A stretch of 64,000 bases of DNA from a virus (taxonomy: Duplodnaviria > Caudoviricetes): IMG/VR virus record IMGVR_UViG_3300048998_000202, one strand, 5' to 3'. This document shows, one piece after another, positions 1-52,392 of the stretch. Under the pieces are notes generated by a model, which saw nothing but the letters and a program-made list of their open reading frames with translations, searched no databases and had not been told where the DNA came from. Position 1 is the first letter of the stretch. Every line of letters begins with the position of its first letter. Made by a program: the position numbers and the translations under genes.

Positions 1-116
1 CCACCCGGAGGTGATCCCCTTCTCCCTGCCGTGCCTTACCCGGCCCTGCCTAGCCATGCCACACCGCACCACGCCCCGCAGGTCTTGACGTTATCAAGAC
101 CCTTCGGAGCCGTCAA
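1..116 (-). ncRNA. GGY-NN pentamer guide-like RNA unit A with own promoter (3' end runs off the window)
   Basis: Minus strand: TTGACG-17 nt-TAACGT, then caagacc-tgcGG and 10 perfect GGY-NN pentamers (ggcgt ggtgc ggtgt ggcat ggcta ggcag ggccg ggtaa ggcac ggcag), then the start of a GC hairpin. Confidence 0.8.
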
Positions 117-120
117 TGAC

Positions 121-248
121 GAAGGGGCCCTCCGTAGAGGACCCCTTCTCCTATGCCAAACCTAGCCATACCCTACCCTGCCACGCCAAACCTAGCCAAG
201 CCATGCCCTGCAAGACTTGACTCTGTCAGCTCCTACGGCATCTGTCAA
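121..248 (-). ncRNA. GGY-NN pentamer guide-like RNA unit B
   Basis: TTGACA-17 nt-CAGAGT promoter, leader caagtcttgcAG, 11 perfect GGY-NN pentamers (207-153) and terminator hairpin GAAGGGGTCCTC-tacg-GAGGGCCCCTTC. Confidence 0.82.
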
Positions 249-253
249 CGACG

Positions 254-353
254 GAGGGGCCCCACCGTAGTGGAGCCCCTCTCCCATGCCCGGCCTTACC
301 CAGCCCTGCCTTGCCTCACCTCGGCCAGCCGTACCGAGACCTTGACTGTATCA
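254..353 (-). ncRNA. GGY-NN pentamer guide-like RNA unit C
   Basis: TGATACAGTCA box just after the stop codon of the 357-1226 gene, 10 pentamers (335-286, one variant gccga) and hairpin GAGGGGCTCCAC-tacg-GTGGGGCCCCTC. Confidence 0.78.
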
Positions 354-356
354 GGA

Positions 357-1226
357 TCAGTAGAACCGGGACCAGTACCGGGGCCGCGCCGCCACCGAGC
401 CCGCCATGCGGGTAGGCCCGTACCTGCCGTAGACGCCGCCCGAGATCAGGACGGCCGGGCGTCCGAGACCCATCTGGCTGATCTTGAAGACATCGAGCTG
501 GGACTTGGCGGCCTGCTCCTCCTCCATGAGGACGTCCCGCCAGCGCTGGACGTAGTCCCGGCGGTCCAGTCGGGAGACGTTGCCGGAGCCCTGGAACATG
601 GGCTGCTCGGTGTAGGAGCGGATCAGGTGCTTGAGGGTCTCGATCCAGGTCATGGCCTCCAGCAGCGGGCCCCACTGGGGATAGGGGAACTGCGCTCCCC
701 CGTCGCCGTCCACGGTGAAGGTCTGGAAGGGCTGCGCGATGGTGTTCATGCGCCCGAGCGCGATGCGCATCAGTTCGGCGATCCGGCCCCGGCCGAACTT
801 CGACTGGACGTAGGTCGTCAGGTTGGGGCCGCCACCTGGGGAGTCGATGGTGTCGGCGATGCGGACCATGACGCGCTCGATGATGTCTTTCATCGGGACC
901 ACCAGGCCGTCGTACGACGGGGCGGCCGGGCCGATCTCGATGCCGGACTCGTAGTACTCCTGCTGACCGGTCAGCAGGTATGTCCAGGCCAGGGTGTAGG
1001 AGCCCGGGACGGAGGTCTCCACGCTGTTGAAGGTCGCCGAGTAGTCGCCGGTCGCGTTGTGGGTGGCCAGCCGGGAGAAGATCTCGTTGCCGGTGTTCTC
1101 GGAGACCATGGTGAGGGTGACCCCGGCGTCGGCATCTATCGGGACCTGGTTCTGGAGGATCTTCAGTCCCACCACGTCCACGGCGTACTGCGATACGTAC
1201 TGCCGATCGTTCCAGTACAAGGCCAT
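357..1226 (-). CDS. virion structural protein, probable head-tail connector/neck
   Basis: 289-aa ORF with phage-like codon usage, in the late operon downstream of the capsid genes. Function inferred from position only. Confidence 0.55.
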   Translation of the reverse strand: MALYWNDRQYVSQYAVDVVGLKILQNQVPIDADAGVTLTMVSENTGNEIFSRLATHNATGDYSATFNSVETSVPGSYTLAWTYLLTGQQEYYESGIEIGPAAPSYDGLVVPMKDIIERVMVRIADTIDSPGGGPNLTTYVQSKFGRGRIAELMRIALGRMNTIAQPFQTFTVDGDGGAQFPYPQWGPLLEAMTWIETLKHLIRSYTEQPMFQGSGNVSRLDRRDYVQRWRDVLMEEEQAAKSQLDVFKISQMGLGRPAVLISGGVYGRYGPTRMAGSVAARPRYWSRFY

Positions 1227-1235
1227 GGTCGAGTC

Positions 1236-1889
1236 CTAGCGGTCGGTCGCGTTGACGAACATGGCCAGGATGCGGCTGGTGCTCAGCGTCATGGAAGAGC
1301 CGGTGGGCGAAGCGGTGATCTGGATGCCGACCGAGTGGGAGCCCGCGCTGATGTTGCGTACGCCCAGGACCGGGATGGTCGTGGACCAGTGACCGGTGCC
1401 GAAGGTGGAGTTGTCGGGCCAGTTGGTCAGGACGTACTCCGCCATGGTGGCGTCGAAGGCCGACACCGCGCCGTCGATCAGGATGCGGTTGGTACCGCCG
1501 ATGAAGCCCCGGGTGGGCAGGCTGAACTCGTTGGTACCGATGCACAGCAGGCTACCGGGCCGGTTCACGGTGAAAGTACCGATGGTGTAGCTGACGACGG
1601 TGTTGTGGTTGATGGTGGCGTTGGGCCGCAGAGCGCCCCACCACACGGCCGGGCCGTAGAGCATCTCGCGCCAGGTGGTGCCGTTCCACATCAGGGTACG
1701 GCGGGTGTCCGTCTCGATGATCTGCATGCCCGTCTGGCCCGCACCCCAGGACGGCCGGGTGGTGGACGTGCATATCCAGTCGCCCGTGTGCTGGTCCAGG
1801 ATGTTGAAGTTCTGGACGAAGTCGGTCCGCAGGAACGGGTCCGACCCGTCGGGGATCTTGATCCCCATGTGCTGGCTGGTGGTGGACAT
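1236..1889 (-). CDS. virion structural protein (minor tail/fiber-like)
   Basis: 217-aa ORF with N-terminal 'MGIKIPDGSDPF..NFNILD', typical of fiber attachment segments, and a beta-rich C-terminus. Preceded by the late promoter motif. Confidence 0.55.
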   Translation of the reverse strand: MSTTSQHMGIKIPDGSDPFLRTDFVQNFNILDQHTGDWICTSTTRPSWGAGQTGMQIIETDTRRTLMWNGTTWREMLYGPAVWWGALRPNATINHNTVVSYTIGTFTVNRPGSLLCIGTNEFSLPTRGFIGGTNRILIDGAVSAFDATMAEYVLTNWPDNSTFGTGHWSTTIPVLGVRNISAGSHSVGIQITASPTGSSMTLSTSRILAMFVNATDR

Positions 1890-2029
1890 CCGCTCCCGAT
1901 CCTCTCGTGGTGACCTTCACCCCTTCCGGGGCGACCTGCGGTAGCCGACAGGACCGGTCGGGGCGACTACCAATAGATGTGCGAGGAGCCCCGTACGTCA
2001 GGTTCGTACGGGGCTCCTCACGTCCGACA

Positions 2030-3415
2030 TCAGGAAACGGTGACGTTGCCCGACGCGGCGGAGGTGGTCGTGGAGACCGATCCCTGGGCCCCCACGGTGG
2101 CGGTGTCCACATGGCCGGTGGTCAGCGCGGTGAAGTCGTTGCTCAAGACGTTGCCCGCCACGGTGTGGACGGTGGTGTCCTGGCCTCCCAGGGTGACGAT
2201 GTAGTTGATCGGGGCGCCCGAGGACGGTGCGGACCACACGACGTGGATGGTGCCCGCCGACGGGCTGGTGACCGTCGGGGCCGCCGGGGCGGTGGGCTTG
2301 CCGAAGGCCGCCGAGGCACTGGAGGTGGCGTTGGCGACCGCGCCGTTGGAAGTGACCGTGGCCGTGATGGCGGTGGCGCTGGCGACTCCGGTGAAGGTGG
2401 TCGTCAGAGTCCCGGCGGCCACGGTCTTGGTCTGGCCGGACGACAGGGTCACCGTGTAGCTGAGCACGGTGCCGCCGGACGTCGGGGCGACCCAGGTGGC
2501 CACCACGCCGCCCACGGTGGCGTTGCCGGACAGGACGACGCTCGTGGGGGCGCCGGGGCGACCCTGGAGGCCGGAGCCCGACTTGATGGTGCCGTCGGCG
2601 CCGTAGATGGGGTTCTGGGCCCAGTAGGGGTCCAGGCCGCCGGGCTTGCCGACGTCCGGCTCATCCGGGTTGTACGGCGTCACGGAGGCCGAGGCGGTGC
2701 CCAGCGGGCCGTTGCCGTTGCGGTTCCGGGCCAGCACCTGGAAGGTGTACGCCTGGTCGGGGACCAGGTTCTGGACGGTGACGGTGGTGACGCCCCGGCC
2801 GGTGTAGGTGGTGCCGCCGGTCGAGCCGACCACCACGTATCCCAGGACGGGCGCGGTGGCATGCGGGTCGGCCACGGTGGCCCACGTGACGCTCGCCGTA
2901 CGGGCTCCGGCGGCCACGGTGGGGGTACCGGCGGGGGCGACCGGTACGAGGGCGCTGACGGGCCCGATGGCACCGATGTTGCCCGACTCCAGGGTGCCGC
3001 TGAGGTTCTGGGCGTAGTCGGTGCGCACCGATCCGTCGGAGATCGGGGTGTCGGTCCGAGTGGTGTCGGCGCCTCCTGCGGCGCCCACGAGGCCGACGGT
3101 GAGGGTCGGGGCCCGGTACGCCTGGGTGACTCCGGAGGTCTGGGGCCAGCCGATCATGCCGGTCTCGACGGTGCCCGCCAGCAGAGGCGGAGGGGTCGGG
3201 GTGTACGGGCCGTTGGTGGCGTTGGTCGCTGAGGTGTCCGGAGTGCCGGTCAGCGTGCCACCGGTCTGGACGTTGCTGCCGCCGCCGCCAGCGCCGGAGT
3301 TGGCGGTGTCGGTGTTGGACGCGCGGTCTTGGGTTCCACGGGGGGCAGCACCGGCATTTCCGGTCACACCCTCGGTGTCGATCTCCTGACCCGAGTATCC
3401 GGGCGGTGTGGTCAT
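2030..3415 (-). CDS. fibronectin type III repeat virion protein
   Basis: Three Fn3-like modules (e.g. VTWATV..VLGYVV..VQNLVPDQAYTFQVLARNRNGNGP; WVAPTSGGTVLSYTVT; WSAPSSGAPINYIVT). Confidence 0.8.
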   Translation of the reverse strand: MTTPPGYSGQEIDTEGVTGNAGAAPRGTQDRASNTDTANSGAGGGGSNVQTGGTLTGTPDTSATNATNGPYTPTPPPLLAGTVETGMIGWPQTSGVTQAYRAPTLTVGLVGAAGGADTTRTDTPISDGSVRTDYAQNLSGTLESGNIGAIGPVSALVPVAPAGTPTVAAGARTASVTWATVADPHATAPVLGYVVVGSTGGTTYTGRGVTTVTVQNLVPDQAYTFQVLARNRNGNGPLGTASASVTPYNPDEPDVGKPGGLDPYWAQNPIYGADGTIKSGSGLQGRPGAPTSVVLSGNATVGGVVATWVAPTSGGTVLSYTVTLSSGQTKTVAAGTLTTTFTGVASATAITATVTSNGAVANATSSASAAFGKPTAPAAPTVTSPSAGTIHVVWSAPSSGAPINYIVTLGGQDTTVHTVAGNVLSNDFTALTTGHVDTATVGAQGSVSTTTSAASGNVTVS

Positions 3416-3443
3416 GGTGCTGCTCCCTCGGGGACTCGGTGTA

Positions 3444-4064
3444 CTACTGCTTTGCGGCGGTGGAGGACGAGGTGGTCTTCTTCGCTGCGGTCTTCTTGGC
3501 GGGAGTCGCTTCGCGGCGCTCCTGGCCCTTCTGGGCGGCTACGGCCTCGTCCTGCGGGTTGGAGGCCCCGGCGATGACCTGCTGCCCGTAGGACTCGCTC
3601 TGGCCGCTGTCAGGGACCTGGGTGATTCCGGCGTCCACTCCGCTGGCGTCCCCCGCCACGTTGGGACTGCGGGGAGCGTCCGGGGCCGCCCCGGTGTCGT
3701 TCCCCGGCGCGATGATGTTCCCGCCGTGCTCGGGGACGCCGCCGTTTTCGACGGTCTGCTGCGGGAGGTTCTGGGCGACGGCGGTGGCCTCCTCGTGCTT
3801 GAGCAGGCCGCGCACCTCCTCCACGATGTCGGCGGTGCGCTCGCGCACGACGGCCTCCACCTTGGCCACGACCCGTTCCACATCACCGAAGATGCGAGTG
3901 GTGCCGGACACGCGCTCGTTGTGGCCGCCGCCGGTACCGGAGGTCTCCAGGGTGCCGGTCATGGCCGTAGGGTCCGGGATGTGATCGACGGATTCCTGGT
4001 AGCCAGTGGCCGCCGGGGAGTCCTCCGGGATCTCGGAGTTCTGGTTCTCAGGCTGTTCTGTCAT
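3444..4064 (-). CDS. hypothetical acidic/low-complexity late protein with Lys/Ala-rich tail
   Basis: 206-aa ORF with RBS, ending in PAKKTAAKKT. Confidence 0.6.
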   Translation of the reverse strand: MTEQPENQNSEIPEDSPAATGYQESVDHIPDPTAMTGTLETSGTGGGHNERVSGTTRIFGDVERVVAKVEAVVRERTADIVEEVRGLLKHEEATAVAQNLPQQTVENGGVPEHGGNIIAPGNDTGAAPDAPRSPNVAGDASGVDAGITQVPDSGQSESYGQQVIAGASNPQDEAVAAQKGQERREATPAKKTAAKKTTSSSTAAKQ

Positions 4065-4077
4065 GTGTCGCCCCTTC

Positions 4078-4614
4078 TCAGTCGCGCTCGCGGTTGCCGA
4101 TGTTCACTCGGACCCACTTGGTCTTGGCCTGCTCGCCCGTGGTGTCCACCTCCGGCACGTACTGAAGCGCGAGCCCCTTGTGGCGGGGGCACAGCGGGGG
4201 GATGTCCTTCAGCAGCTTCTCGGAGATGGCCACGGCTTCTTCACAGGTACCGATGCCCCGCGAATCCGGGCCGACGCAGAACGCGCTGACGGTGTCCCGG
4301 CTGGTCGGCTTCTCGATCGTTGCCTGGATGTTCTCCTTGGCCCCGTCCTGACGCCGACGGAAGGCGTCCACCTGACGGCTCAGAGCCTCGACCACCTCGG
4401 GGTCGGACTCCTCGTCCATCAGCTCCACGACGCCACGGGCCAGGGCGCGCTTGAACGCGACCGACTCCAGGACGGCTTCGGGGATGTACTGGATGTCGTC
4501 TCCGGAGGGGTCGCCGCTGGCGGCCCACTCCACGGAGTGGGTCCCCTTGACGTCCGAGGCGAGGACGGTGACGCCGTCCATCAGGTTGCGGGCAACGATC
4601 GAGCCGACAGGCAT
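4078..4614 (-). CDS. hypothetical late protein with C-terminal Cys/His (Zn) motif
   Basis: 178-aa ORF behind the late promoter motif at 4642-4676. Confidence 0.6.
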   Translation of the reverse strand: MPVGSIVARNLMDGVTVLASDVKGTHSVEWAASGDPSGDDIQYIPEAVLESVAFKRALARGVVELMDEESDPEVVEALSRQVDAFRRRQDGAKENIQATIEKPTSRDTVSAFCVGPDSRGIGTCEEAVAISEKLLKDIPPLCPRHKGLALQYVPEVDTTGEQAKTKWVRVNIGNRERD

Positions 4615-4855
4615 GAGGGTCTCCGTTCGTGAAGGTCTTCTCGTCCTTTACGCGGAGTCGTCACGGGTCCAACAGGAAAGGCCCCGGCCCGGGGGTACCG
4701 GGGCCAGGGCCTTTCGTGGACGATCGGCGCCACGACTCAGGTCCGTGGGGGACGGAAGGAATCGGCGCCGCCTCGTGCACGGGGAGCGTGGCACGGTGGG
4801 GTAGACGCTGTCAAGGCGAATGTGTTCCACTGGAGAGATGGAAGATCAGCACACG

Positions 4856-5077
4856 ATGCAGACAGACACCCCCACCGACGACCTGAAGCTGTACGGGATC
4901 TCCGAGCTGGCGGATCGCTGGAAGGTCTCTAAGCAGCGGGCTGACGAGATCGCCTCCAAGCGCCTCCCACAGCCCCTCACGCTCAAGATGGGCCGCATCT
5001 GGACAGAACTCCAGGTGGAGAACTTCGAGAGAGGGTGGGTCCGTAAGACGGGGCGTCACATCGTCCCCAGGACTTGA
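4856..5077 (+). CDS. small AlpA/excisionase-like HTH DNA-binding protein
   Basis: LYGISELADRWKVSKQRADEI...LPQP..LKMGRIW is an AlpA-like wHTH pattern. Start could be 4838. Lies directly upstream of the RNA array. Confidence 0.7.
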   Translation: MQTDTPTDDLKLYGISELADRWKVSKQRADEIASKRLPQPLTLKMGRIWTELQVENFERGWVRKTGRHIVPRT

Positions 5078-5163
5078 TATCGTCAGGGGTTACTGGGCTC
5101 GGCAGGGCTAGGTAGGGCAGGACTGGGCACGGCATGGGAGGGGCTTCCTACGGGGAGCCCCTC
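5075..5163 (+). ncRNA. GGY-NN guide-like RNA unit D
   Basis: TGATATCGTCA box, pentamers 5096-5135 (one variant gactg) and hairpin GAGGGGCTTCC-tacg-GGGAGCCCCTC. Confidence 0.75.
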
Positions 5164-5168
5164 AGCCG

Positions 5169-5262
5169 TTGACAGGCGCTCTTGGGAGTGACAGAGTCAG
5201 GTCTTGCAGGACCACACGTGGGCGTGTGGAGAAGGGGCGCTTCTTCCAGGAGGCGCCCCTTC
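5169..5262 (+). ncRNA. array unit E: same promoter/leader but hairpin body instead of pentamers
   Basis: TTGACA-17-CAGAGT, caggtcttgcag, hairpin CCACACG-tggg-CGTGTGG and terminator GAAGGGGCGC..GCGCCCCTTC. Confidence 0.6.
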
Positions 5263-5267
5263 GTCGT

Positions 5268-5422
5268 TTGACAGACCGGCACGGGGGTGACAAAGTCAGG
5301 TCTTGCATGATGGGAAGGACACACGGTTGGTTTCTGAGGCCGGAACCGTGTGGATGCGATCGGCCCTCAAGGCCGTGGACGCGTCCGAAGGCCCCCTCTG
5401 AAGATTCCTGGAGGGGGCCTTC
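5268..5422 (+). ncRNA. array unit F: same promoter/leader, two-hairpin structured RNA
   Basis: TTGACA-17-CAAAGT, caggtcttgca, stems CACACGGTT/AACCGTGTG and GGATGCG..CGGCC/GGCCG..CGCGTCC, then terminator GAAGGCCCCCTC/GAGGGGGCCTTC. Confidence 0.6.
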
Positions 5423-5428
5423 GTTCGT

Positions 5429-5557
5429 TTGACCGGACGACATTAGGGCTGACAGGGTCAGTTCTTACAGGGCACCGTCTGGTTGGGCACGGTAAGGCAT
5501 GGTGGGGTAAGGCACGGCTGGGCAGGGGAGGGCGACCATCTTCGGATGGTCGCCCTC
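5429..5557 (+). ncRNA. GGY-NN guide-like RNA unit G
   Basis: TTGACC-18-CAGGGT, 11 pentamers at 5471-5525 (one variant cgtct) and a UUCG-capped terminator. Confidence 0.8.
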
Positions 5558-5563
5558 AGCCGT

Positions 5564-5706
5564 TTGACAGGTGCGGGTGGAGCTGACAGAGTCAAGTCTT
5601 GCAGGGCCGGGCCCGGTAGGGCGTGGTTTGGCGTGGTGTGGTTGGGCAACGCATGGCATGGCATGGCAGGGGAAAGGCCCCAGGATTTTAAAATCCTGGG
5701 GCCTTT
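5564..5706 (+). ncRNA. GGY-NN guide-like RNA unit H
   Basis: TTGACA-17-CAGAGT, 13 pentamers at 5605-5669 (one variant cgcat) and terminator GAAAGGCCCCAGGATTTTAAAATCCTGGGGCCTTTC. Confidence 0.8.
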
Positions 5707-5708
5707 CG

Positions 5709-5841
5709 TTACGCCCTGAAGGAACTGATAGAGTCATGGTCTCGGCAGGCCGAGGCTAGGTAAGGCACGGCGGGGCAAGGCACCGCCCGGTAGGGCAAGG
5801 CATGGGGAAGGCCCCCTCGGATTCTCCCGAGGGGGCCTTCC
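5709..5841 (+). ncRNA. GGY-NN guide-like RNA unit I (decodes to major capsid gene motif)
   Basis: TGATAGAGTCA box, 12 pentamers at 5744-5803 (variants gccga, cgccc) and a terminator convergent with the capsid gene. Confidence 0.82.
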
Positions 5842-5866
5842 GTTGTCCTGAAGCGACTACTCTCCG

Positions 5867-6856
5867 TCACGCCTTGGTGATCGTCGCGATGCCCCTGGGG
5901 TTCAAAATGGACATATTGACCATTTCGTCAAATACCCATCCCTTCCAGAAGGCTTCGACCATGTGGTTCTCTTCCACGTCCAAACTGTACAGAACGGGGA
6001 AAACGCCCAAGAAGTTGGGCTCCGGGGTGAGGAAGACCTTGCCCTGCGGGACGATGATCGACCGCTGGATCTGGAACTCGCCGAACGAGGTGATGGTCTC
6101 GCCCGCGACGACCCGGTCCTTGAAGGCCCAGCCCGTCTGGTTGATGTCCCACCGGTACAGGTCCCGGAAGTCGAACGGGTTGATCAGGATCCGCGCCGAC
6201 TGGAGCTCGTGCATGTCCGTCATGGCGACGGCCGAGTACAGCGAGCCCGGCGTCAGGTAGCCCGACGCCTCGGTGATGTTGTGGTTCGGGGTGACCGTGT
6301 GGTCCGGGCGGGTGGCGTAGTCCGTCAGCGCCGCCTGGAGCAGTACGAGCAGCCGGGTGTCCTCCTGCTTGAGGATCGCCTGCTTGGTCTCGTCCTGGGC
6401 CTGCTCGACTGCGTTGATACGCAGGTAGAACAGGTCCTCCTTGCGGATCGCGGGGCGCGAGGCGATACGGAAGAACCGCACCGGAACGCGCTTGCCCTCG
6501 AACGGAGTCACACGGACTTCGCCCTCGGTGCCGGACATGATGTACGCCTGGCCCAGGTCGTCCCACACGTCGTACTCGACGGGGGTACCCGGGGTGACCG
6601 GGTCCTCCACGAGCACGTTGCGGGTGATGCCCTGGTAGCGGAGCTTGAGCTGGATGGGACCGACCATCCCGACGCCCAGACGGCGGATGCCGCCGGTCTC
6701 GTCGGAGAGGATCAGCGCCATCTTCTTGACCTTCGCCTCATGCGTGAGAGGCGCGGCCTTCTCCCGGCGGGCGAGGATCGCGGAGGCGTAGTCGTCGGAC
6801 TTCTTGGCCACACGGCCACGGAGCGACGAGGTTGCGGCGAGAGTCTGAGTCGGCAT
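5867..6856 (-). CDS. major capsid protein (HK97 fold)
   Basis: 329 aa with capsid-like sequence (GPIQLKLRYQGITRNVLVED, QAILKQEDTRL, C-terminal ILNPRGIATI). Follows scaffold and decoration genes. Confidence 0.85.
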   Translation of the reverse strand: MPTQTLAATSSLRGRVAKKSDDYASAILARREKAAPLTHEAKVKKMALILSDETGGIRRLGVGMVGPIQLKLRYQGITRNVLVEDPVTPGTPVEYDVWDDLGQAYIMSGTEGEVRVTPFEGKRVPVRFFRIASRPAIRKEDLFYLRINAVEQAQDETKQAILKQEDTRLLVLLQAALTDYATRPDHTVTPNHNITEASGYLTPGSLYSAVAMTDMHELQSARILINPFDFRDLYRWDINQTGWAFKDRVVAGETITSFGEFQIQRSIIVPQGKVFLTPEPNFLGVFPVLYSLDVEENHMVEAFWKGWVFDEMVNMSILNPRGIATITKA

Positions 6857-8571: not shown

Positions 8572-11500
8572 TCAGACAGGCATCGGCAGCGGCGTTTCGC
8601 CCTGCTCTTCGGCGGGGCTCATGAGCTGCCCCTGACCACAGTTGGGGCAGACGTCGCCCGCCTGGACTCCGTCGGGGGTGGCCTCTCCCGTCGGCGGCAG
8701 GATCGAGGTGTCCATGTCGACGCTCACCGGGTTGGTGGCGTCGGCCTGGAATCCGCACGCCGGACATTCGAGGTCCGGTACGCCATCGCCGGGGGTACCG
8801 GGGACTCCCTGGCCCGCGTCCGGGTTGGGGATCTGTCCGTCGGTGTCCAGGTCCTGAGGTCCGGCCGGGCCCTCGGGACCTGTCGGCTGGCCGGGTCCCT
8901 GGGGCGTGTCGGGCCCTGGGGTGAACGGCTGGCCGTCACTGCTGACCGCGTCGGCCGGGAGGGCCTGCGGTCCGATCGGCATTCCGTCGGGTCCGACCAT
9001 CATCTGCTGGCCGGGCTGCTGGAGCGGCTGTCCGTCGGGTCCGAGCATGGCCGGGTCGACTGGTGCCCCCAGCTCGTTCGGATCCTGCGGCTGGCCGTCC
9101 GGGCCGAGCGCGTTGGGATCCTGGGGCGAGTCTCCGCCCATCGGGTCGCCGCCCGGCTGTACCTCGGCCTGTACTTCACCGGGGAGTGTGCCGGGCTGCT
9201 GACCCTGGTCCGCAGCGTCGGGGTTGACGGGGTTGCCGTTCTCGTCCAGGGCCGCCGGGTCGGCCGGGTTTTCGACCGGCTGTCCGTCAGGTCCGATCTG
9301 ATTGGGGTTGGCCGGATCCTGGAACTCTGCGACGTCCTTCCGCAGGTCCATCTGTCGGGCCTTCTCCAGGTCGGGGTCCTGGAACATCTTGGGGGGTGCG
9401 ACGTAGCTGCACACCTGGCAGGTGGCGCCGTCGAAGGTGTCGCGGTCACCGCACACCGGGCAGGCGTCCTCGCGCAGGGTGTCCACGTCCTCGGGGGCCT
9501 TCGTCTCGCCGTAGGCCAGTTTGCGGCCCAGCAGGCGACGAGAATCCTCGGGGGGAGTAGCCCCCCGGCCCGTCTGGAGACCCTTGCCGTTCTCGGTGGC
9601 GAACGGGGAGTGCACCGGGGCTGGGTCGTAATGGGCCGCAGCGTGATCCAGCATGGCGGAGGCCACTCCTCGTCGCTTGAGGTTGTCGTCCACACCGATC
9701 CAGTTGATATGGCCAGCGGGCTTGACGTGCCAGGAGTCCGCGTGGCCATTCATGCCGCAGTGGTCGCAGTGCTGATCGGGCCGGAAGTCGTCAGGTCCCT
9801 TCTCGTCCCAGTACTCCTCGCGCTTCTTGGTCCACTCCAGCTTCCCGACCTGCTGCCTGTCGGGAGTGTGGGCGCGCAGCACGTGGTACTTGTAGTCCGG
9901 TCCACCGTGGTACGTGAAGTGCAGGCCCTCCGGCAGATCACCACTGGCCCCGGCCACATGGGAGTTCGCCGGGGGCTGGTGCAGGTCCGGATTGTGCTCG
10001 CGGCTGAGGTCCTGCCAGGTCTTGCGCTGGTTGCGCTGCACGGTGTTGCGGCCCTTCTGACCGCCTGAGGTGTCACCCTCGGCGTTCAGGCGCTGCCGGG
10101 CGAGCCAGGTGACGGCCTGCACCTCGTGCGGGGGCACTTCGCGGCCCTCACGGTCGGAGATGACCGCTGCGGCCTTGCGGTAGTGGTTGGCCACGACCTC
10201 GTAGTGCTTGCGGTTCTGCGAAGGGAAGCCCTTGACGTCGTCGGCGTTCAGACGGCGCCCGGCGGCGACGGACAGGGCATGACGATCCACGACGACCTTG
10301 TCCGAAGGCTCCTTGGGCTTTCCTGCCGCCGCGTCCTCAGGGCTCTGGGGCTTGTTACCGCCGTGCTCGATCAGGGAGGCGAAGTCCTGCGTCTTGGGCC
10401 CCTTGAGGGCTTCCTGGTGGTTCATGCCGTCCATGACCTTCTGGGCGGCGTTGGCGTGACTGCCCATCACCATGATGCCCTCGCCCTTGCCGACGGCCCG
10501 CTGCTCGTGGAAGGCCCGCGCGGCGTTGTGCTGGTTGGCCCACCAGCCCTGCTGCGGGGAGTAGGCGGAGAGGACGCCTGCGCCCTTGTGGGCGGCTTCG
10601 GCGTCGCTCTTGATGCGGGGATCCAGTTTGGCGATGGACTTGGCCACCAGGTGGGCGTCGGGGTACCAGCGTTTGCCCTGCGCCTTCTCCTCGCTGGTGG
10701 CCTGGTCCCAGTGGTCCACGACGTGGTGGTGGGACAGGCCCATCTCCTTGAACCACGGATGGTCCTCGGGTGGCGTGGCCGCCGCACCCTCGGCCATCAG
10801 ATCGGCCAGGGTGACGCGGGAGCCGGTGGCGGCAATCTGCCTCACCACGGAGTCCGGGATCTCCTCCGGAGTGGGGTACGACTTCGAACGCGCCCTGTGG
10901 GTGGTGACGAAGTGGCCGTCACCGTCCTGCTTGAGACCGACCTCGGCGAAACGCGGGTCCTTCTTGGCGGCCTCGAACATCCGGTCCTGGGCGTACCCGG
11001 AGCCCTCGGGAGTCTTCCCGGGGTCTTTGGCCTTGGGCGGCCAGTTGGTGGCGCGTGCCCCGTGATAGGGAGCCTTCTCGCCGTATTCATCCGGGGTGTC
11101 GGAGAGGGGGGACTTCGCCACGTAGGCGTGGATCTTCTTGATCCCTGCGGCCTTGGCCGCCTCGGTCCGGTGGTGGCCGTCGGCGACCTGGAAGACGCCG
11201 TGCCGGTGTACGAGGACGACCGGTGGCATCTGCTCGGGGTTGTCCCGGTACCCCTCGGCAGCGTGCTGGACGCGGTAGTCACCGGCCTCGTGGCGCTTGT
11301 GGTCGATGGCGCTCGGGCTGACCATCGCGTGATGGAAGGTCAGGTCATCGATCGAACGCTCGTTGGCGTCAGGGTCGTCGGGGGTGGAGTGGGCCAAGTT
11401 GCTGGCTGCCCATCCGATCATCTCCCCGTCGGCGTGCTCGGCCCGATCGCCGTGGATCTCGGGGTCCCCGTAGATCTCCGGGTGCCGCTCGCCTACCTCG

Positions 11501-12327
11501 TCCCAGGACAGGCCCCGCCCGGCAGTGGTGTTGATGGAGTCAAGACTTGCGGTACTCTGGATCTCGCTCGGCTCGGCTCGGATTGGCTTGGTTGGGCTTG
11601 GCACGGCAAGGTACGGCATGGCATGGGTGGCGGTCTCTCCGGAGGCCGCCACAGCCATTTTCATACCCCGGTCATCGATCCCGGTGAAAAACGCCGTCGG
11701 ATCCGCCGGGGGCTCCACCAGCAGCGAGTTCTCGAAAAACCGCAATCCGTAGCAGGTCTCACGGATGATCTCGCCGATCTTCTGCCCGGAAGCCGTCGTC
11801 CGGTAAAGCGTCATTCCCTTTGATCCAGGGATGTGGGCGCAGTATTCGGCAGGGGTAGTGGCCTTGTTGCCACAGGCGGAGCAGACGGAGAAGGCGACGT
11901 CGGTGCCCATGCTGGTTCTGGCGATGTTGCCGTTCATGATCTCGGCGGCCAGCTTGGGAAAGCGCAGCGCATCGACCTCTTGGAGGACCTCGACCCACCA
12001 GTCCCGGCTGCCGTCGCGGTTGCTGTCCTTGTGCAAAACCGCGTCGATGATCACACCACGGGCGCGCTTGTGATCTTCGTTCGCGTGATTGACGAAGACG
12101 GGCTTACCGATAAACGTCCGGTATCCCTTCTCCAGTTCCTCAGCGGGGAACTCGTCGAAGTTGTCGTTGCACCGGCTGGAGATGGCGCGGGAGCGCACGT
12201 ACAGGTAGCCGGGGCGCACCTCATACGAAAAGTGGTGCCGGTGGGCGAAGCGGCGCAGCTCACGGGCACCCGCGTCCGTGGGGACGAGGGCCTTGGTCAT
12301 GATCTGGGCGCTCGCGTACTTGAGCAT
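8572..12327 (-). CDS. multidomain head protein: prohead protease-like N-terminus + ParB/Srx-like + HhH-glycosylase-like + GNAT + Zn ribbons
   Basis: N-terminal GKPVFVNH..ARGVIIDA..TSMG..CSACGN..YCAHI..FFENSLLVEPPADPTA. ParB-like MPPVVLV..ADGHHR. WY..SAYSPQ..GPK..VVVDRHA..VQAVTW. GNAT RRGVASAML. Several CxxC pairs. Confidence 0.7.
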   Translation of the reverse strand: MLKYASAQIMTKALVPTDAGARELRRFAHRHHFSYEVRPGYLYVRSRAISSRCNDNFDEFPAEELEKGYRTFIGKPVFVNHANEDHKRARGVIIDAVLHKDSNRDGSRDWWVEVLQEVDALRFPKLAAEIMNGNIARTSMGTDVAFSVCSACGNKATTPAEYCAHIPGSKGMTLYRTTASGQKIGEIIRETCYGLRFFENSLLVEPPADPTAFFTGIDDRGMKMAVAASGETATHAMPYLAVPSPTKPIRAEPSEIQSTASLDSINTTAGRGLSWDEVGERHPEIYGDPEIHGDRAEHADGEMIGWAASNLAHSTPDDPDANERSIDDLTFHHAMVSPSAIDHKRHEAGDYRVQHAAEGYRDNPEQMPPVVLVHRHGVFQVADGHHRTEAAKAAGIKKIHAYVAKSPLSDTPDEYGEKAPYHGARATNWPPKAKDPGKTPEGSGYAQDRMFEAAKKDPRFAEVGLKQDGDGHFVTTHRARSKSYPTPEEIPDSVVRQIAATGSRVTLADLMAEGAAATPPEDHPWFKEMGLSHHHVVDHWDQATSEEKAQGKRWYPDAHLVAKSIAKLDPRIKSDAEAAHKGAGVLSAYSPQQGWWANQHNAARAFHEQRAVGKGEGIMVMGSHANAAQKVMDGMNHQEALKGPKTQDFASLIEHGGNKPQSPEDAAAGKPKEPSDKVVVDRHALSVAAGRRLNADDVKGFPSQNRKHYEVVANHYRKAAAVISDREGREVPPHEVQAVTWLARQRLNAEGDTSGGQKGRNTVQRNQRKTWQDLSREHNPDLHQPPANSHVAGASGDLPEGLHFTYHGGPDYKYHVLRAHTPDRQQVGKLEWTKKREEYWDEKGPDDFRPDQHCDHCGMNGHADSWHVKPAGHINWIGVDDNLKRRGVASAMLDHAAAHYDPAPVHSPFATENGKGLQTGRGATPPEDSRRLLGRKLAYGETKAPEDVDTLREDACPVCGDRDTFDGATCQVCSYVAPPKMFQDPDLEKARQMDLRKDVAEFQDPANPNQIGPDGQPVENPADPAALDENGNPVNPDAADQGQQPGTLPGEVQAEVQPGGDPMGGDSPQDPNALGPDGQPQDPNELGAPVDPAMLGPDGQPLQQPGQQMMVGPDGMPIGPQALPADAVSSDGQPFTPGPDTPQGPGQPTGPEGPAGPQDLDTDGQIPNPDAGQGVPGTPGDGVPDLECPACGFQADATNPVSVDMDTSILPPTGEATPDGVQAGDVCPNCGQGQLMSPAEEQGETPLPMPV
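11532..11652 (+). ncRNA. GGY-NN guide-like RNA unit J, antisense inside the protease gene
   Basis: TGATGGAGTCA box, leader caagacttgcgg, pentamers at 11570-11624 (one variant ggatt) and terminator GTGGCGGTCTC-tccg-GAGGCCGCCAC. Confidence 0.78.
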
Positions 12328-42718: not shown

Positions 42719-42875
42719 GAAACCTCCAGGGTCAGAATCTCTGGCGGGACCAAGCGTACTCACAGGATTGCCGGAGCGCTACCCAACTACCTTTATGGGT
42801 TGGCCTCTTGCAGCGCTCATCGTTTCAGCACACGAAAAGGCCCCGAGGACTAGGTGTCCTCGGGGCCTTTTGTCG

Positions 42876-42949
42876 TAGCGCGGACCAGATTCGAACTGGC
42901 GACCTGTGGGTTATGAGCCCACCGAGCTACCGAACTGCTCCACCGCGCG
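42876..42949 (-). tRNA. tRNA-fMet (CAT)
   Basis: Cloverleaf with anticodon loop CTCATAA, unpaired C1 and GGG/CCC in the anticodon stem. CTGACA-17-TATCGT promoter upstream. Confidence 0.92.
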
Positions 42950-50084: not shown

Positions 50085-50254
50085 GCGGTCTCCTGGCGGG
50101 TGAGATTTTAAAAAGATGTGACTGGACTCTCCGACGGCTCTTGCGAGCCACGCACCCACATGGGGCTGGATATCTCTCGGGGTGGGAGCTTGCCTCCAGA
50201 TGTCCCGAGCCTTACCAGCGCCCATCCCATATCCAGTCTGGTGGGTCCCTAGCG

Positions 50255-50328
50255 CTCCTCCGGCAGGGTTCGAACCTGCGACCGTCGCCTTAACAGGGCG
50301 CTGCTCTGGCCAACTGAGCTACGGAGGA
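50255..50328 (-). tRNA. tRNA-Asn (GTT)
   Basis: Acceptor TCCTCCG/CGGAGGA, anticodon loop CTGTTAA and T-loop TTCGAAC. Confidence 0.92.
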
Positions 50329-51969: not shown

Positions 51970-52319
51970 CAGAGGACGACCGTCTGGAAGGTCTCCACGG
52001 CGGTGTCGTGGACGCCCCAGTCACCGTTGCTGTCCGAGGAGACCAGGTACATCCCCACGACCCGGTCGGGGTTCTTCTGGGCGTCGCCCCAGGACAGGTC
52101 GATCCGGTGGATGGCCAGGTCCTTCTGGAAACCGATGATCCGGACGACGTGGCCCCCGTGGATCTCCGGGAACTCCACGCTGCCCTTGTTGTCGGCGTGG
52201 ATCGGGTACGGGAGCTGGGTGCCCACGTGACCGTCATCGGTGATCATGTCGATGCGCGGGGCGGGCTGAATCTTGAACATGGGCATGGATACTCCCTGGT
52301 CCGACGACTATCTCTGGCG

Positions 52320-52392
52320 TACCCCCGACCGGATTCGAACCGGCACCTCCGGATTGAGAATCCGACGGGACTGCCATTGCCTCCACAGGGGC
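52320..52392 (-). tRNA. tRNA-Glu (CTC)
   Basis: Anticodon loop TTCTCAA, T-arm GCCGG-TTCGAAT-CCGGT and acceptor GCCCCTG/CGGGGGT. Confidence 0.85.

What the first reader, a model, noticed from the sequence alone, without database searches (positions are those of the whole stretch)
21..80. Guide A decodes to SF2 helicase motif III: (V)(F/L)RLY(M/I)TATP
Seen: NN including the leader tgcGG = GG GT GC GT AT TA AG CG AA AC AG. Reverse-complemented as codon positions 1-2, this reads L-V-F/L-R-L-Y-I/M-T-A-T-P. Established: TATP is SF2 motif III. From memory, RLY(M/L)TATP is typical of Type ISP restriction-modification helicases and Streptomyces TtrA-like helicases. No such gene is in this window. Inference: the guide targets a host defence or plasmid helicase gene, so the system may also act as RNA-guided anti-defence.
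Basis: inference. Interest (0 to 1): 0.88.

Follow-up and report, generated by a model that had tools for sequence, protein, structure and literature searches.

The report
Phage guide RNA aimed at helicase gene
Positions 21-80 are the repeat tract of a phage VIPR guide RNA, a kind of system first described in 2026, and its two-letter code spells the conserved motif III of TtrA-type helicase genes at the ends of Streptomyces linear plasmids and chromosomes, so the phage probably silences those genes.

Summary
On the minus strand, 80-21 reads tgc-GG followed by ten GGY-NN pentamers, with the NN exactly as listed.

It is one of at least 8 promoter + pentamer tract + hairpin units in an actinophage. 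This is the VIPR/vrRNA system published in 2026 (bioRxiv 10.64898/2026.04.26.720920). In that system the NN pair with DNA while skipping every third base, usually the codon wobble.

Related phages carry a Vipr protein 39% identical to the protein of coliphage SUSP2. In this phage a 192-aa and a 196-aa gene follow the array just outside the window. Only their lengths could be seen.

Decoded by the published rule, the guide specifies (L)V(F/L)RLY(I/M)TATP:
- The 8-dinucleotide core found 70 sites in IMG/VR, against 5 for a reversed control. Of these, 68 lie in frame as RLYMTATP, the motif III of Type ISP restriction enzymes or of ResIII + HA helicases.
- In 401 Streptomyces genomes, about 157 sites matched with at most 2 mismatches, against 1 control site. 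Most lie 1-2 kb from replicon ends, some beside tap-tpg.
- A related phage carries an offset guide with the same 8 dinucleotides. It matches a sister helicase subfamily 22/22.

The best match for guide A is 19/20; no perfect target was found. The anti-defence idea is not shown. The system is known; the target class appears new.

The parts
21..80 (-). Repeat tract of vrRNA 'guide A'. It consists of the leader tgc plus NN1 (GG, 77-76), then ten GGY-NN pentamers (75-26), then gga-ga (25-21), which begins the tail. The NN are GG GT GC GT AT TA AG CG AA AC AG.
   Evidence: Direct reading and pentamer scans. The last NN is A[G/T] in almost all guides of this family, so it probably belongs to the constant tail.
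1..20 (-). 5' half of the tail or terminator hairpin of guide A. The window edge cuts it. The full 13-bp stem is visible in L001:1763-1790.
   Evidence: Sequence of L001. RNA fold: -52.5 kcal/mol, z = -4.0, with a hairpin of 13 pairs.
84..116 (-). Promoter-like element of guide A. It has TTGACG (116-111), a 17-nt spacer and TAACGT (93-88), lying within the conserved box TGAyAnnGTCAAG (96-84).
   Evidence: The box is invariant across 10 aligned units from this phage and L007. The simple E. coli-type consensus scan does not call it, so promoter function is inferred.
117..353 (-). Guides B (tract 153-212) and C (tract 281-330) with their hairpins. They lie upstream in the same tandem array. C follows directly after the stop codon of the 289-aa structural gene (357-1226).
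5075..5841 (+). Second cluster of units with the same promoter box, opposite in orientation to the flanking structural genes. It holds four pentamer guides and two units without pentamers. The last guide (I) matches the capsid genes of related phages.
11532..11652 (+). Solo guide unit J, antisense inside the 1251-aa ORF (8572-12327, minus strand).

Best explanation
Positions 21-80 (minus strand) are the variable tract of a VIPR guide RNA (vrRNA) of an actinophage.

Inferred from the SUSP1 system:
- The RNA is about 90 nt. It is made from its own promoter and ends in a GC-rich hairpin.
- Copies of the small RAMP-like Vipr protein bind one per pentamer. They flip out each GGY and present the NN dinucleotides.
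- The filament pairs with double-stranded DNA whose target strand reads NN-x-NN-x, forms an R-loop triplex and blocks transcription.
- The vipr gene is the 192-aa ORF that follows the four-unit array just left of the window.

Shown here:
- The NN of guide A specify the codons (V)(F)RLYMTATP. This is motif III of the SF2 helicase motor shared by TtrA-family helicases (ResIII + Helicase_C + tandem HA domains) and Type ISP restriction enzymes.
- The best natural matches, 19/20 informative bases with the nine 5' units perfect, are ttrA-like genes. They lie 1-2 kb from the ends of Streptomyces linear chromosomes and linear plasmids.

Inferred:
- The host is a Streptomyces.
- The phage uses this guide to silence ttrA-type terminal-transfer helicase genes of linear replicons. 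That would be warfare against a rival mobile element, or against host DNA transfer, rather than classical anti-restriction.
For: (1) System identity.
- The pentamer grammar matches the published vrRNA description: 9-16 YNNGG repeats, one-base skip, skip at the wobble position.
- The Vipr-like protein of related phages (P0001) is 39% identical to SUSP2 gp040 over 186 aa, E = 7e-49. SUSP2 gp040 is flanked by GGT-NN arrays.
- Residues H18, K34, R138, D177 and R179 are invariant in 22 homologues. They correspond to the functional residues H17, K33, R138, D177 and R179 of SUSP1 Vipr.
- The accessory protein P0002 resembles SUSP2 gp039, E = 1e-6.
- In this phage, 192-aa and 196-aa genes follow the array. 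The same synteny is seen in L007, where the 192-aa gene is P0011.

(2) The rule works in this phage family. Guide I matches the capsid genes of relatives 21/24, against 18/24 for the phage's own capsid gene. The encoded peptide is identical, and shuffled guides give 0 hits.

(3) The target.
- 68 of 70 IMG/VR sites are in-frame RLYMTATP, against 5 control sites.
- Among 83 exact 9-dinucleotide sites in GTDB genomes, 28 are actinobacterial genes (nearly all Streptomyces) reading IHDNxRIPA[AD]FRLYMTATPRIL.
- These proteins are ResIII + Helicase_C + 4xHA, and the motif closes the ResIII domain.
- In L093 and L116 they sit next to tap and tpg.
- About 157 sites against 1 control were found in 401 Streptomyces genomes, many at both chromosome ends.
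- 380 Streptomyces plasmid records carry the family near an end.
- TtrA is described as a subtelomeric conjugation helicase with HA domains.

(4) Independent support from a second phage.
- L007 carries an offset guide sharing 8 consecutive NN: 0 of 16 NN bases changed, against 5 of 27 scaffold bases.
- Its decode is LRLYMTATPRI. The upstream differences are synonymous or conservative (TTx vs CTx, GT vs AT).
- It matches a sister HA-helicase subfamily 22/22.

(5) Guide A has no target within the window.
Against: - No perfect 10- or 11-dinucleotide target was found in IMG/VR, in 185,579 species genomes or in JGI metagenomes.
- The commonest telomeric allele reads DFRLYLTATP (18/20).
- The mismatches fall in the tail-proximal units. 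In SUSP1, DNA engagement appears to start at that end, so tolerance of these mismatches is unknown.
- The phage's own vipr gene was not seen as sequence, only as a 192-aa entry in a gene table.
- Expression of the guide is inferred. The simple promoter and terminator scans are negative, and no RNA data were available.
- The host is not established.
- No benefit to a phage from silencing ttrA is known.
Confidence: 0.6

Rival explanations
1. The real target is a helicase gene of a rival phage, satellite or other element that has not been sampled and that reads exactly VFRLYMTATP. On this view the Streptomyces ttrA matches are only homologous near-misses.
For: - Published VIPR targets are mostly satellites, prophages and rival VIPR loci.
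- Guide I of this phage targets the capsid genes of relatives.
- Guide A's unit 10 (AC, pairing with GT = Val) fits none of the telomeric alleles, but it does fit a third HA-helicase subfamily, PAVRRLYMTATP.
- Two IMG/VR proviral contigs carry ResIII + HA helicases.
Against: - No exact match in IMG/VR, GTDB genomes or JGI metagenomes.
- The helicase family is essentially absent from 50,697 cultured phage records.
- No match with 3 or fewer mismatches in two related viral contigs.
Confidence: 0.22
2. RNA-guided anti-defence. The guide silences Type ISP restriction-modification genes, or other defence helicases that share motif III, to protect the phage.
For: - 66 of the 70 IMG/VR core hits carry the Type ISP-style context; those tested have the full Type ISP architecture.
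- Actinobacterial Type ISP genes (L115, L118, L134) match guide A 18/20 and the L007 guide 21/22. Mycobacterium Type ISP genes match the L007 guide 22/22.
Against: - Most Type ISP genes have K/R codons where guide A specifies V and F/L, giving 16 of the 20 guide positions.
- The best and most numerous matches are TtrA-like proteins without nuclease or methylase domains.
- Transcriptional silencing cannot remove enzyme that is already present when the phage DNA enters. This point rests on established knowledge of restriction-modification systems.
Confidence: 0.1
3. The resemblance has no function. Either the tract is a decayed or inactive guide, or the pentamer RNAs do something other than DNA targeting, for example acting as a protein sponge or a G-rich structure.
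For: - No expression or binding data exist for this phage.
- The best target has a mismatch.
- Rfam has no family for these units.
Against: - Enrichment is 14-fold to about 150-fold over controls.
- The NN are conserved across two phages while the scaffold bases drift.
- An intact promoter box and hairpin are present.
- Vipr homology is clear.
- Guide I behaves as the rule predicts.
Confidence: 0.05

Closest known systems
Type II VIPR system of Escherichia phage SUSP1/SUSP2 (Felixounavirus relatives): Vipr + Vap1 + vrRNAs (bioRxiv 10.64898/2026.04.26.720920, 10.64898/2026.04.26.720927 and 10.64898/2026.10.15.759431)
   Same: - The guides are GGY-NN pentamer RNAs of 9-13 units, each with its own promoter and a structured 3' end, arranged in tandem arrays next to the genes.
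- The protein is about 190 aa and 39% identical, with the same RNA-contacting residues.
- A small accessory protein with a GVGY[KR]VV motif follows.
- Targets follow the one-base-skip rule, with the skip at the wobble position.
- Another guide of the same phage targets relatives.
   Different: - The host is a high-GC actinobacterium, probably Streptomyces, and the phage is a Myrna-like myovirus (capsid 60% identical).
- The scaffold is mostly GGC rather than GGT.
- The tail is a simple terminator hairpin, whereas SUSP1 has a pseudoknot.
- Arrays are scattered at three places, including one inside a coding region.
- The predicted target of this guide is not a satellite or prophage regulator. 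It is the catalytic motif III of a helicase carried by linear plasmids and chromosome ends.
Class 1 CRISPR-Cas effector complexes (Cas7 backbone filaments with periodic flipped bases)
   Same: An RRM/RAMP protein polymerises along a guide RNA. A thumb interrupts guide-target pairing at regular intervals. DNA binding is RNA-guided.
   Different: There is no CRISPR array, no repeat-spacer processing and no adaptation genes. The guide information is non-contiguous (2 of every 5 RNA bases, 2 of every 3 DNA bases). According to the cited papers no PAM is needed.
Telomeric type I-E CAST spacers that match ttrA in Streptomyces (bioRxiv 10.1101/2024.11.13.623437)
   Same: This is another RNA-guided system, carried by a mobile element, whose guides converge on ttrA at Streptomyces telomeres.
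   Different: Its guides are CRISPR spacers used for transposon homing, not a phage-borne silencing system. Pairing is contiguous.

Membership tests
VIPR system (vrRNA + Vipr) | Guide RNA made of 9-16 tandem YNNGG (GGY-NN) pentamers, with conserved GGY and hypervariable NN | tested here: met
   Guide A has 11 units. There are 8 tracts in the window and about 25 distinct tracts in related phages. GGY is constant and no two NN strings are the same.
VIPR system (vrRNA + Vipr) | Constant structured 3' tail after the repeat tract, and a separate transcription unit | tested here: inconclusive
   A 13-bp GC hairpin follows the tract, and a conserved promoter-like box precedes each unit. No pseudoknot is evident, and consensus scans call neither a promoter nor a terminator. 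No RNA data are available.
VIPR system (vrRNA + Vipr) | Adjacent gene for a ~20 kDa RAMP-like Vipr protein | tested here: inconclusive
   For this phage only a gene table is available. A 192-aa gene and then a 196-aa gene lie about 0.6 kb after the 289-aa gene; their DNA could not be fetched. For syntenic relatives the feature is met: P0001 and P0011 are 39% identical to SUSP2 gp040, E = 7e-49.
VIPR system (vrRNA + Vipr) | Vipr residues that hold GGY and the DNA (SUSP1 H17, K33, R138, D177, R179) | tested here: met
   H18, K34, R138, D177 and R179 are invariant in 22 actinobacterial or phage homologues. The pairwise alignment with SUSP2 places them in register.
VIPR system (vrRNA + Vipr) | Natural targets obey the one-base-skip rule at 80% or more NN match, with the skip on the codon wobble | tested here: met
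   Guide A matches 19/20 (95%), or 19-20/22, in frame in ttrA-like genes. The L007 guide matches 22/22. Guide I matches 21/24 in relatives' capsid genes.
VIPR system (vrRNA + Vipr) | No self-targeting at 80% or more | tested here: met
   The best score in the 64-kb window is 14/20, equal to shuffled guides. The rest of the genome is not available.
VIPR system (vrRNA + Vipr) | Vipr-vrRNA ribonucleoprotein forms and represses transcription at the target | not testable with these tools
   Needs biochemistry or a reporter assay.
Target: SF2 helicase motif III | TAT/SAT-type motif at the end of RecA-like domain 1 | tested here: met
   RLYMTATP lies at the last positions (about 153-163 of 164) of the Pfam ResIII match and at the end of the DEAD match, in all 14 proteins tested.
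Target: TtrA-family terminal helicase of Streptomyces linear replicons | ResIII/DEAD + Helicase_C + tandem HA domains, in a subtelomeric position, often near tap-tpg | tested here: met
   Domains were confirmed. Tap (NF047542) and Tpg (NF047541) lie next to the gene in L093 and L116. Sites lie 0.1-2 kb from both ends of complete chromosomes and of 380 Streptomyces plasmid records.
Target: Type ISP restriction-modification enzyme | Mrr-like nuclease + ResIII helicase + coupler + N6 methylase + specificity domain in one polypeptide | tested here: not met
   The architecture is present in the IMG/VR and Mycobacterium hits. However, the genes that fit guide A best lack the nuclease, coupler, methylase and specificity domains. 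Type ISP genes fit guide A only 16 of the 20 guide positions, up to 18/20.

The most novel reading that the evidence does not exclude
A lytic actinophage carries a VIPR guide written against the protein-level consensus of a helicase motor motif.

One RNA could then silence the terminal-transfer helicase (ttrA) on both telomeres of the Streptomyces chromosome and on resident linear plasmids or telomeric transposons. It might also silence the homologous Type ISP restriction genes.

This would be RNA-guided warfare of phage against plasmid or host, aimed at a catalytic motif that cannot mutate away. Related phages have retuned the same guide to different helicase subfamilies.
Probability: 0.35. 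Interest if true: 0.75.

Novelty: new member of a known kind. Interest (0 to 1): 0.62.

Why it matters
VIPR was described only in 2026, and experiments exist only for coliphage and Pseudomonas systems. Their guides hit satellites, prophage regulators or rival VIPR loci.

This window shows the system in a Myrna-like actinophage. It also gives a concrete, testable natural target of a different kind: the invariant motif III of TtrA-type helicases at the ends of Streptomyces linear plasmids and chromosomes.

Two points follow:
- Skipping the wobble base lets a guide be written against a protein motif that the target cannot change. A second phage has kept the same 16 guide bases while the scaffold drifted, and has tuned the flanks to a sister helicase subfamily.
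- If confirmed, this would link phage infection to control of linear-plasmid transfer in Streptomyces. It would also provide a compact silencing tool native to high-GC actinobacteria.

Tried and rejected
- First ideas were dropped. Before the literature search I considered a TRAP-like 11-mer ring-binding decoy RNA and a two-tetrad G-quadruplex. Both were abandoned once the VIPR papers and the Vipr homology explained the GGY-NN grammar.
- Rfam gathering scan: only 3 tRNAs, and no family for the units.
- megablast and blastn of window 1-6000 against cultured phages: no match.
- Exact full-guide patterns: 0 hits for 11 NN in IMG/VR, 0 for 11 NN in GTDB genomes, and 0 for 10 NN in JGI metagenomes.
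- Guide A against two related viral contigs, 3 or fewer mismatches: 0 hits.
- Fetching this phage's own vipr gene failed:
  - The exact 49-mer search in IMG/VR found nothing.
  - The Logan contig is listed without DNA, and L001 ends 100 nt beyond the window.
  - The exact 54-mer search in metagenome contigs found nothing.
  - P0005, P0011, P0029 and P0085 all turned out to belong to other phages.
- The E. coli-type promoter and terminator scan of 1-420 found 0 sites. The promoter is therefore inferred from the conserved box only.
- Other window guides (B, C, D, G, H, J) were scored against the loci fetched for guide A. None scored above shuffle level, so guides do not converge on the ttrA loci.
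- No structure prediction, structure search or complex prediction was run. Sequence homology to SUSP2 was already decisive.

Full report
**What is at 21-80.** On the minus strand the stretch reads tgc-GG followed by ggc-GT, ggt-GC, ggt-GT, ggc-AT, ggc-TA, ggc-AG, ggc-CG, ggt-AA, ggc-AC, ggc-AG and then gga-ga.
- Upstream, at 116-88, lie TTGACG, a 17-nt spacer and TAACGT. These sit inside a box, TGAyAnnGTCAAG, that is invariant in ten aligned units.
- Downstream a 13-bp GC hairpin begins at position 19 and runs over the window edge. It is complete in the metagenome contig L001 and folds at -52.5 kcal/mol, z = -4.0.
- The window holds at least eight such units: three in tandem at 1-353 (minus strand), a cluster at 5075-5841 (plus strand) and one at 11532-11652 (plus strand).
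- L001 shows a fourth tandem unit just beyond the window.

**Context.** The window is the structural region of a large actinophage with 66% G+C.
- The major head protein (5867-6856, minus strand) is about 60% identical to that of Mycobacterium phage Myrna and other cluster C-like myoviruses.
- There is no nucleotide match in cultured phages.

**What kind of thing it is.** A literature search found three 2026 preprints on VIPR systems.
- vrRNAs consist of 9-16 YNNGG repeats.
- Vipr, a ~20 kDa RAMP-like protein, binds one protomer per repeat and flips out GGY.
- The NN pair with DNA while skipping every third target base, which in natural targets is almost always the codon wobble.
- Binding silences transcription, and natural targets are rival mobile elements.

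**Evidence that this phage family carries the system.**
- The related viral contig L006 has, between its capsid gene and the next structural gene, an array, then a 193-aa gene (P0001), a 178-aa gene (P0002), and more arrays.
- P0001 has about 700 homologues without any Pfam domain.
- It is 39% identical over 186 residues (E = 7e-49) to gp040 of Escherichia phage SUSP2. That gene is flanked by GGT-NN arrays.
- The residues shown by cryo-EM and mutagenesis to hold GGY and the DNA in SUSP1 Vipr are H17, K33, R138, D177 and R179. They correspond to invariant H18, K34, R138, D177 and R179 in the actinobacterial family.
- P0002 resembles SUSP2 gp039, the vap1 position.
- For the phage of the window itself, only a gene table from a Logan contig could be seen. 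It lists the 289-aa gene, a gap that holds the arrays, then genes of 192, 196 and 587 aa. The same order occurs in the 160-kb contig behind L007, where the 192-aa gene is the Vipr homologue P0011.
- So the system is VIPR, closest to the SUSP type. The presence of vipr in this very phage is inferred from synteny and gene length.

**Does the published rule hold in this family?** Yes.
- Guide I (window 5726-5830) scores 21/24 on the major capsid genes of L007 and L002, 20/24 on L003 and L005, and only 18/24 on the phage's own capsid gene (5982-6016).
- All of these encode the same peptide, NFLGVFPVLYSL. The differences are Leu and Ser codon-family switches.
- Shuffled guides give no hit.

**The decode of guide A.** By the rule, the target strand is CTn GTn TTn CGn CTn TAn ATn ACn GCn ACn CC, which reads L V (F/L) R L Y (I/M) T A T P.
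- The last NN is A[G/T] in nearly all guides and is usually unpaired in the matches I could inspect. The informative guide is therefore probably ten dinucleotides: V (F/L) R L Y (I/M) T A T P.

**Tests of the decode.**

1. IMG/VR core search.
   - The eight-dinucleotide core gives 70 exact sites, against 5 for the pattern read backwards.
   - Of the 70, 68 are in frame as [KR]RLYMTATP[RK]I.
   - The proteins are Type ISP restriction-modification enzymes (Mrr_cat_2, ResIII, Helicase_C, ISP_coupler, N6_Mtase, Type_ISP_C) or ResIII + Helicase_C + HA helicases. The motif closes the ResIII domain, which makes it SF2 motif III.

2. GTDB species genomes.
   - The nine-dinucleotide pattern YTn + core gives 83 sites in the 185,579 species genomes. 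About 45 are in Streptomyces.
   - Twenty-eight actinobacterial genes read IHDNxRIPA[AD]FRLYMTATPRIL and match guide A at 19-20 of 22 positions. All nine 5' units are perfect.
   - They are ~900-aa ResIII + Helicase_C + 4xHA proteins.
   - In L093 and L116 they lie next to the telomere genes tap and tpg.

3. Streptomyces genomes.
   - In 401 genomes the ten-dinucleotide pattern with at most 2 mismatches hits 127 genomes (about 157 sites), against one control site.
   - In complete assemblies the sites lie 0.1-2 kb from both chromosome ends, for example 881 and 8,935,184 of one 8.9-Mb chromosome.

4. Phage and plasmid collections.
   - The helicase segment is essentially absent from 50,697 cultured phage records.
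   - It is present in 407 plasmid records, 380 of them Streptomyces, almost always within 2 kb of a record end.
   - This is the position and architecture described for TtrA, the terminal-transfer (conjugation) helicase of Streptomyces linear replicons.

**A second phage.** L007 carries, in the same array position, a guide whose NN are AT CG GG GT GC GT AT TA AG CG AG AT.
- Eight consecutive dinucleotides are identical to guide A, in a register shifted by two units. Five of the 27 scaffold bases in the shared stretch differ, but none of the 16 NN bases do.
- Its decode is (I/M) L R L Y (I/M) T A T P R (I/M). It extends the motif to TATPR, as in real helicases.
- Where the two guides differ, the changes are TTx versus CTx (both can be Leu) and GT versus AT (Val versus Ile/Met).
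- Without its constant last unit the L007 guide matches 22/22. The matches are a sister subfamily of Streptomyces HA helicases (PAKLRLYMTATPRIF: L085, L099, L100, L126, L143, L148 and others) and Type ISP genes of Mycobacterium (L096, L108, L158).
- This pattern is what selection on a coding target predicts.

**Limits.**
- No perfect 10- or 11-dinucleotide site for guide A exists in IMG/VR, the GTDB species genomes or the JGI metagenome contigs.
- The commonest telomeric allele has Leu instead of Met (DFRLYLTATP, 18/20). A third Streptomyces HA-helicase subfamily (PAVRRLYMTATP) also scores 18/20.
- The mismatches lie in the tail-proximal units. In SUSP1 the DNA-bound filament resolves from the 3' end toward the 5' end, so their effect cannot be judged.
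- Expression, RNP formation, silencing and the host are all inferred.
- The host inference rests on three points: the guide's best matches (28 exact F-type, 9-unit sites) are almost only in Streptomyces; there are Vipr homologues in Streptomyces genomes; and L007 carries a DUF397 gene.

**Interpretation.**
- I rate the identity of the stretch as a vrRNA at about 0.95.
- I rate the statement that its code specifies helicase motif III of the TtrA/Type ISP motor at about 0.85.
- I rate the statement that ttrA-type genes of linear replicons are the biological target at about 0.55.
- The anti-defence reading is weak. TtrA is not a known defence gene, and PADLOC models match only its motor module. 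Type ISP genes mostly fit guide A worse (16 of the 20 guide positions, up to 18/20). Silencing cannot remove enzyme already made.
- A better analogy is the published case in which SUSP1 VIPR immobilises a satellite by silencing its recombinase. Silencing ttrA would immobilise linear plasmids or telomeric elements, or stop end-first DNA transfer, during infection. That step is inference.

**Novelty.** The system is known from the 2026 preprints. None of the three mentions actinobacteria, helicases or restriction genes as targets.
- I file the finding as a new member of a known kind with a new predicted target class.
- This scan had already noted the same stretch in another window, and had noted the system as a whole.

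Noticed in passing
window 5726-5830 (+) and 5982-6016; L007:2876-2910; L002:4563-4597: Guide I matches the major capsid genes of related phages 21/24 but the phage's own capsid gene only 18/24. All encode the same peptide, NFLGVFPVLYSL. The own gene differs by Leu and Ser codon-family switches, which looks like self-avoidance while attacking relatives.
   Followed up: yes
window 153-212 (-); L184 (Streptomyces genome G065:C2:76795-76826): Guide B decodes to (N)YILLTNYKML. It matches PDILLTNYKML 19/22 in a DEAD/ResIII helicase in 1 of 101 Streptomyces genomes, with 0 control hits. A second guide of the array may therefore also aim at a helicase motif.
   Followed up: partly
window 5160-5260 and 5265-5430 (+): Two units have the same promoter box and terminator hairpins but no GGY-NN tract. 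One holds a short hairpin. The other is a ~110-nt body beginning with ATGATG. Their function is unknown.
   Followed up: no
window 11532-11652 (+), inside ORF 8572-12327 (-): A complete guide unit (box, pentamers, hairpin) lies antisense within the linker of a 1251-aa protease/MuF-like structural ORF without breaking its frame.
   Followed up: no
all guides in the window and in L002, L006, L007, L009: The last dinucleotide before the tail is almost always AG or AT, and it is usually mismatched in the target alignments. 'AC AG' recurs at the 3' end of several guides. The final unit therefore looks like part of a constant handle rather than guide information.
   Followed up: partly
L084, L086, L087, L089, L090, L094, L105, L129, L157 and others (Bacteroidota, Gemmatimonadota, Leptospira): About 20 of the 83 exact genome hits are not helicases. 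They share a different conserved context (..T[FL]RLYITATPA.., often with stop codons nearby). This suggests a conserved gene on the opposite strand (GVAVMYSRK reading) or a conserved non-coding element.
   Followed up: no
L007:8690-9900: In the related phage the array between the 289-aa gene and vipr has six guide units interspersed with small ORFs, one of them DUF397. Both here and in L006 the array location differs between phages: after the tail-region gene, or next to the capsid gene.
   Followed up: no
window 42875-42949, 50254-50328, 52319-52392 (-): Three phage tRNA genes: Met-CAT, Asn-GTT and Glu-CTC.
   Followed up: no
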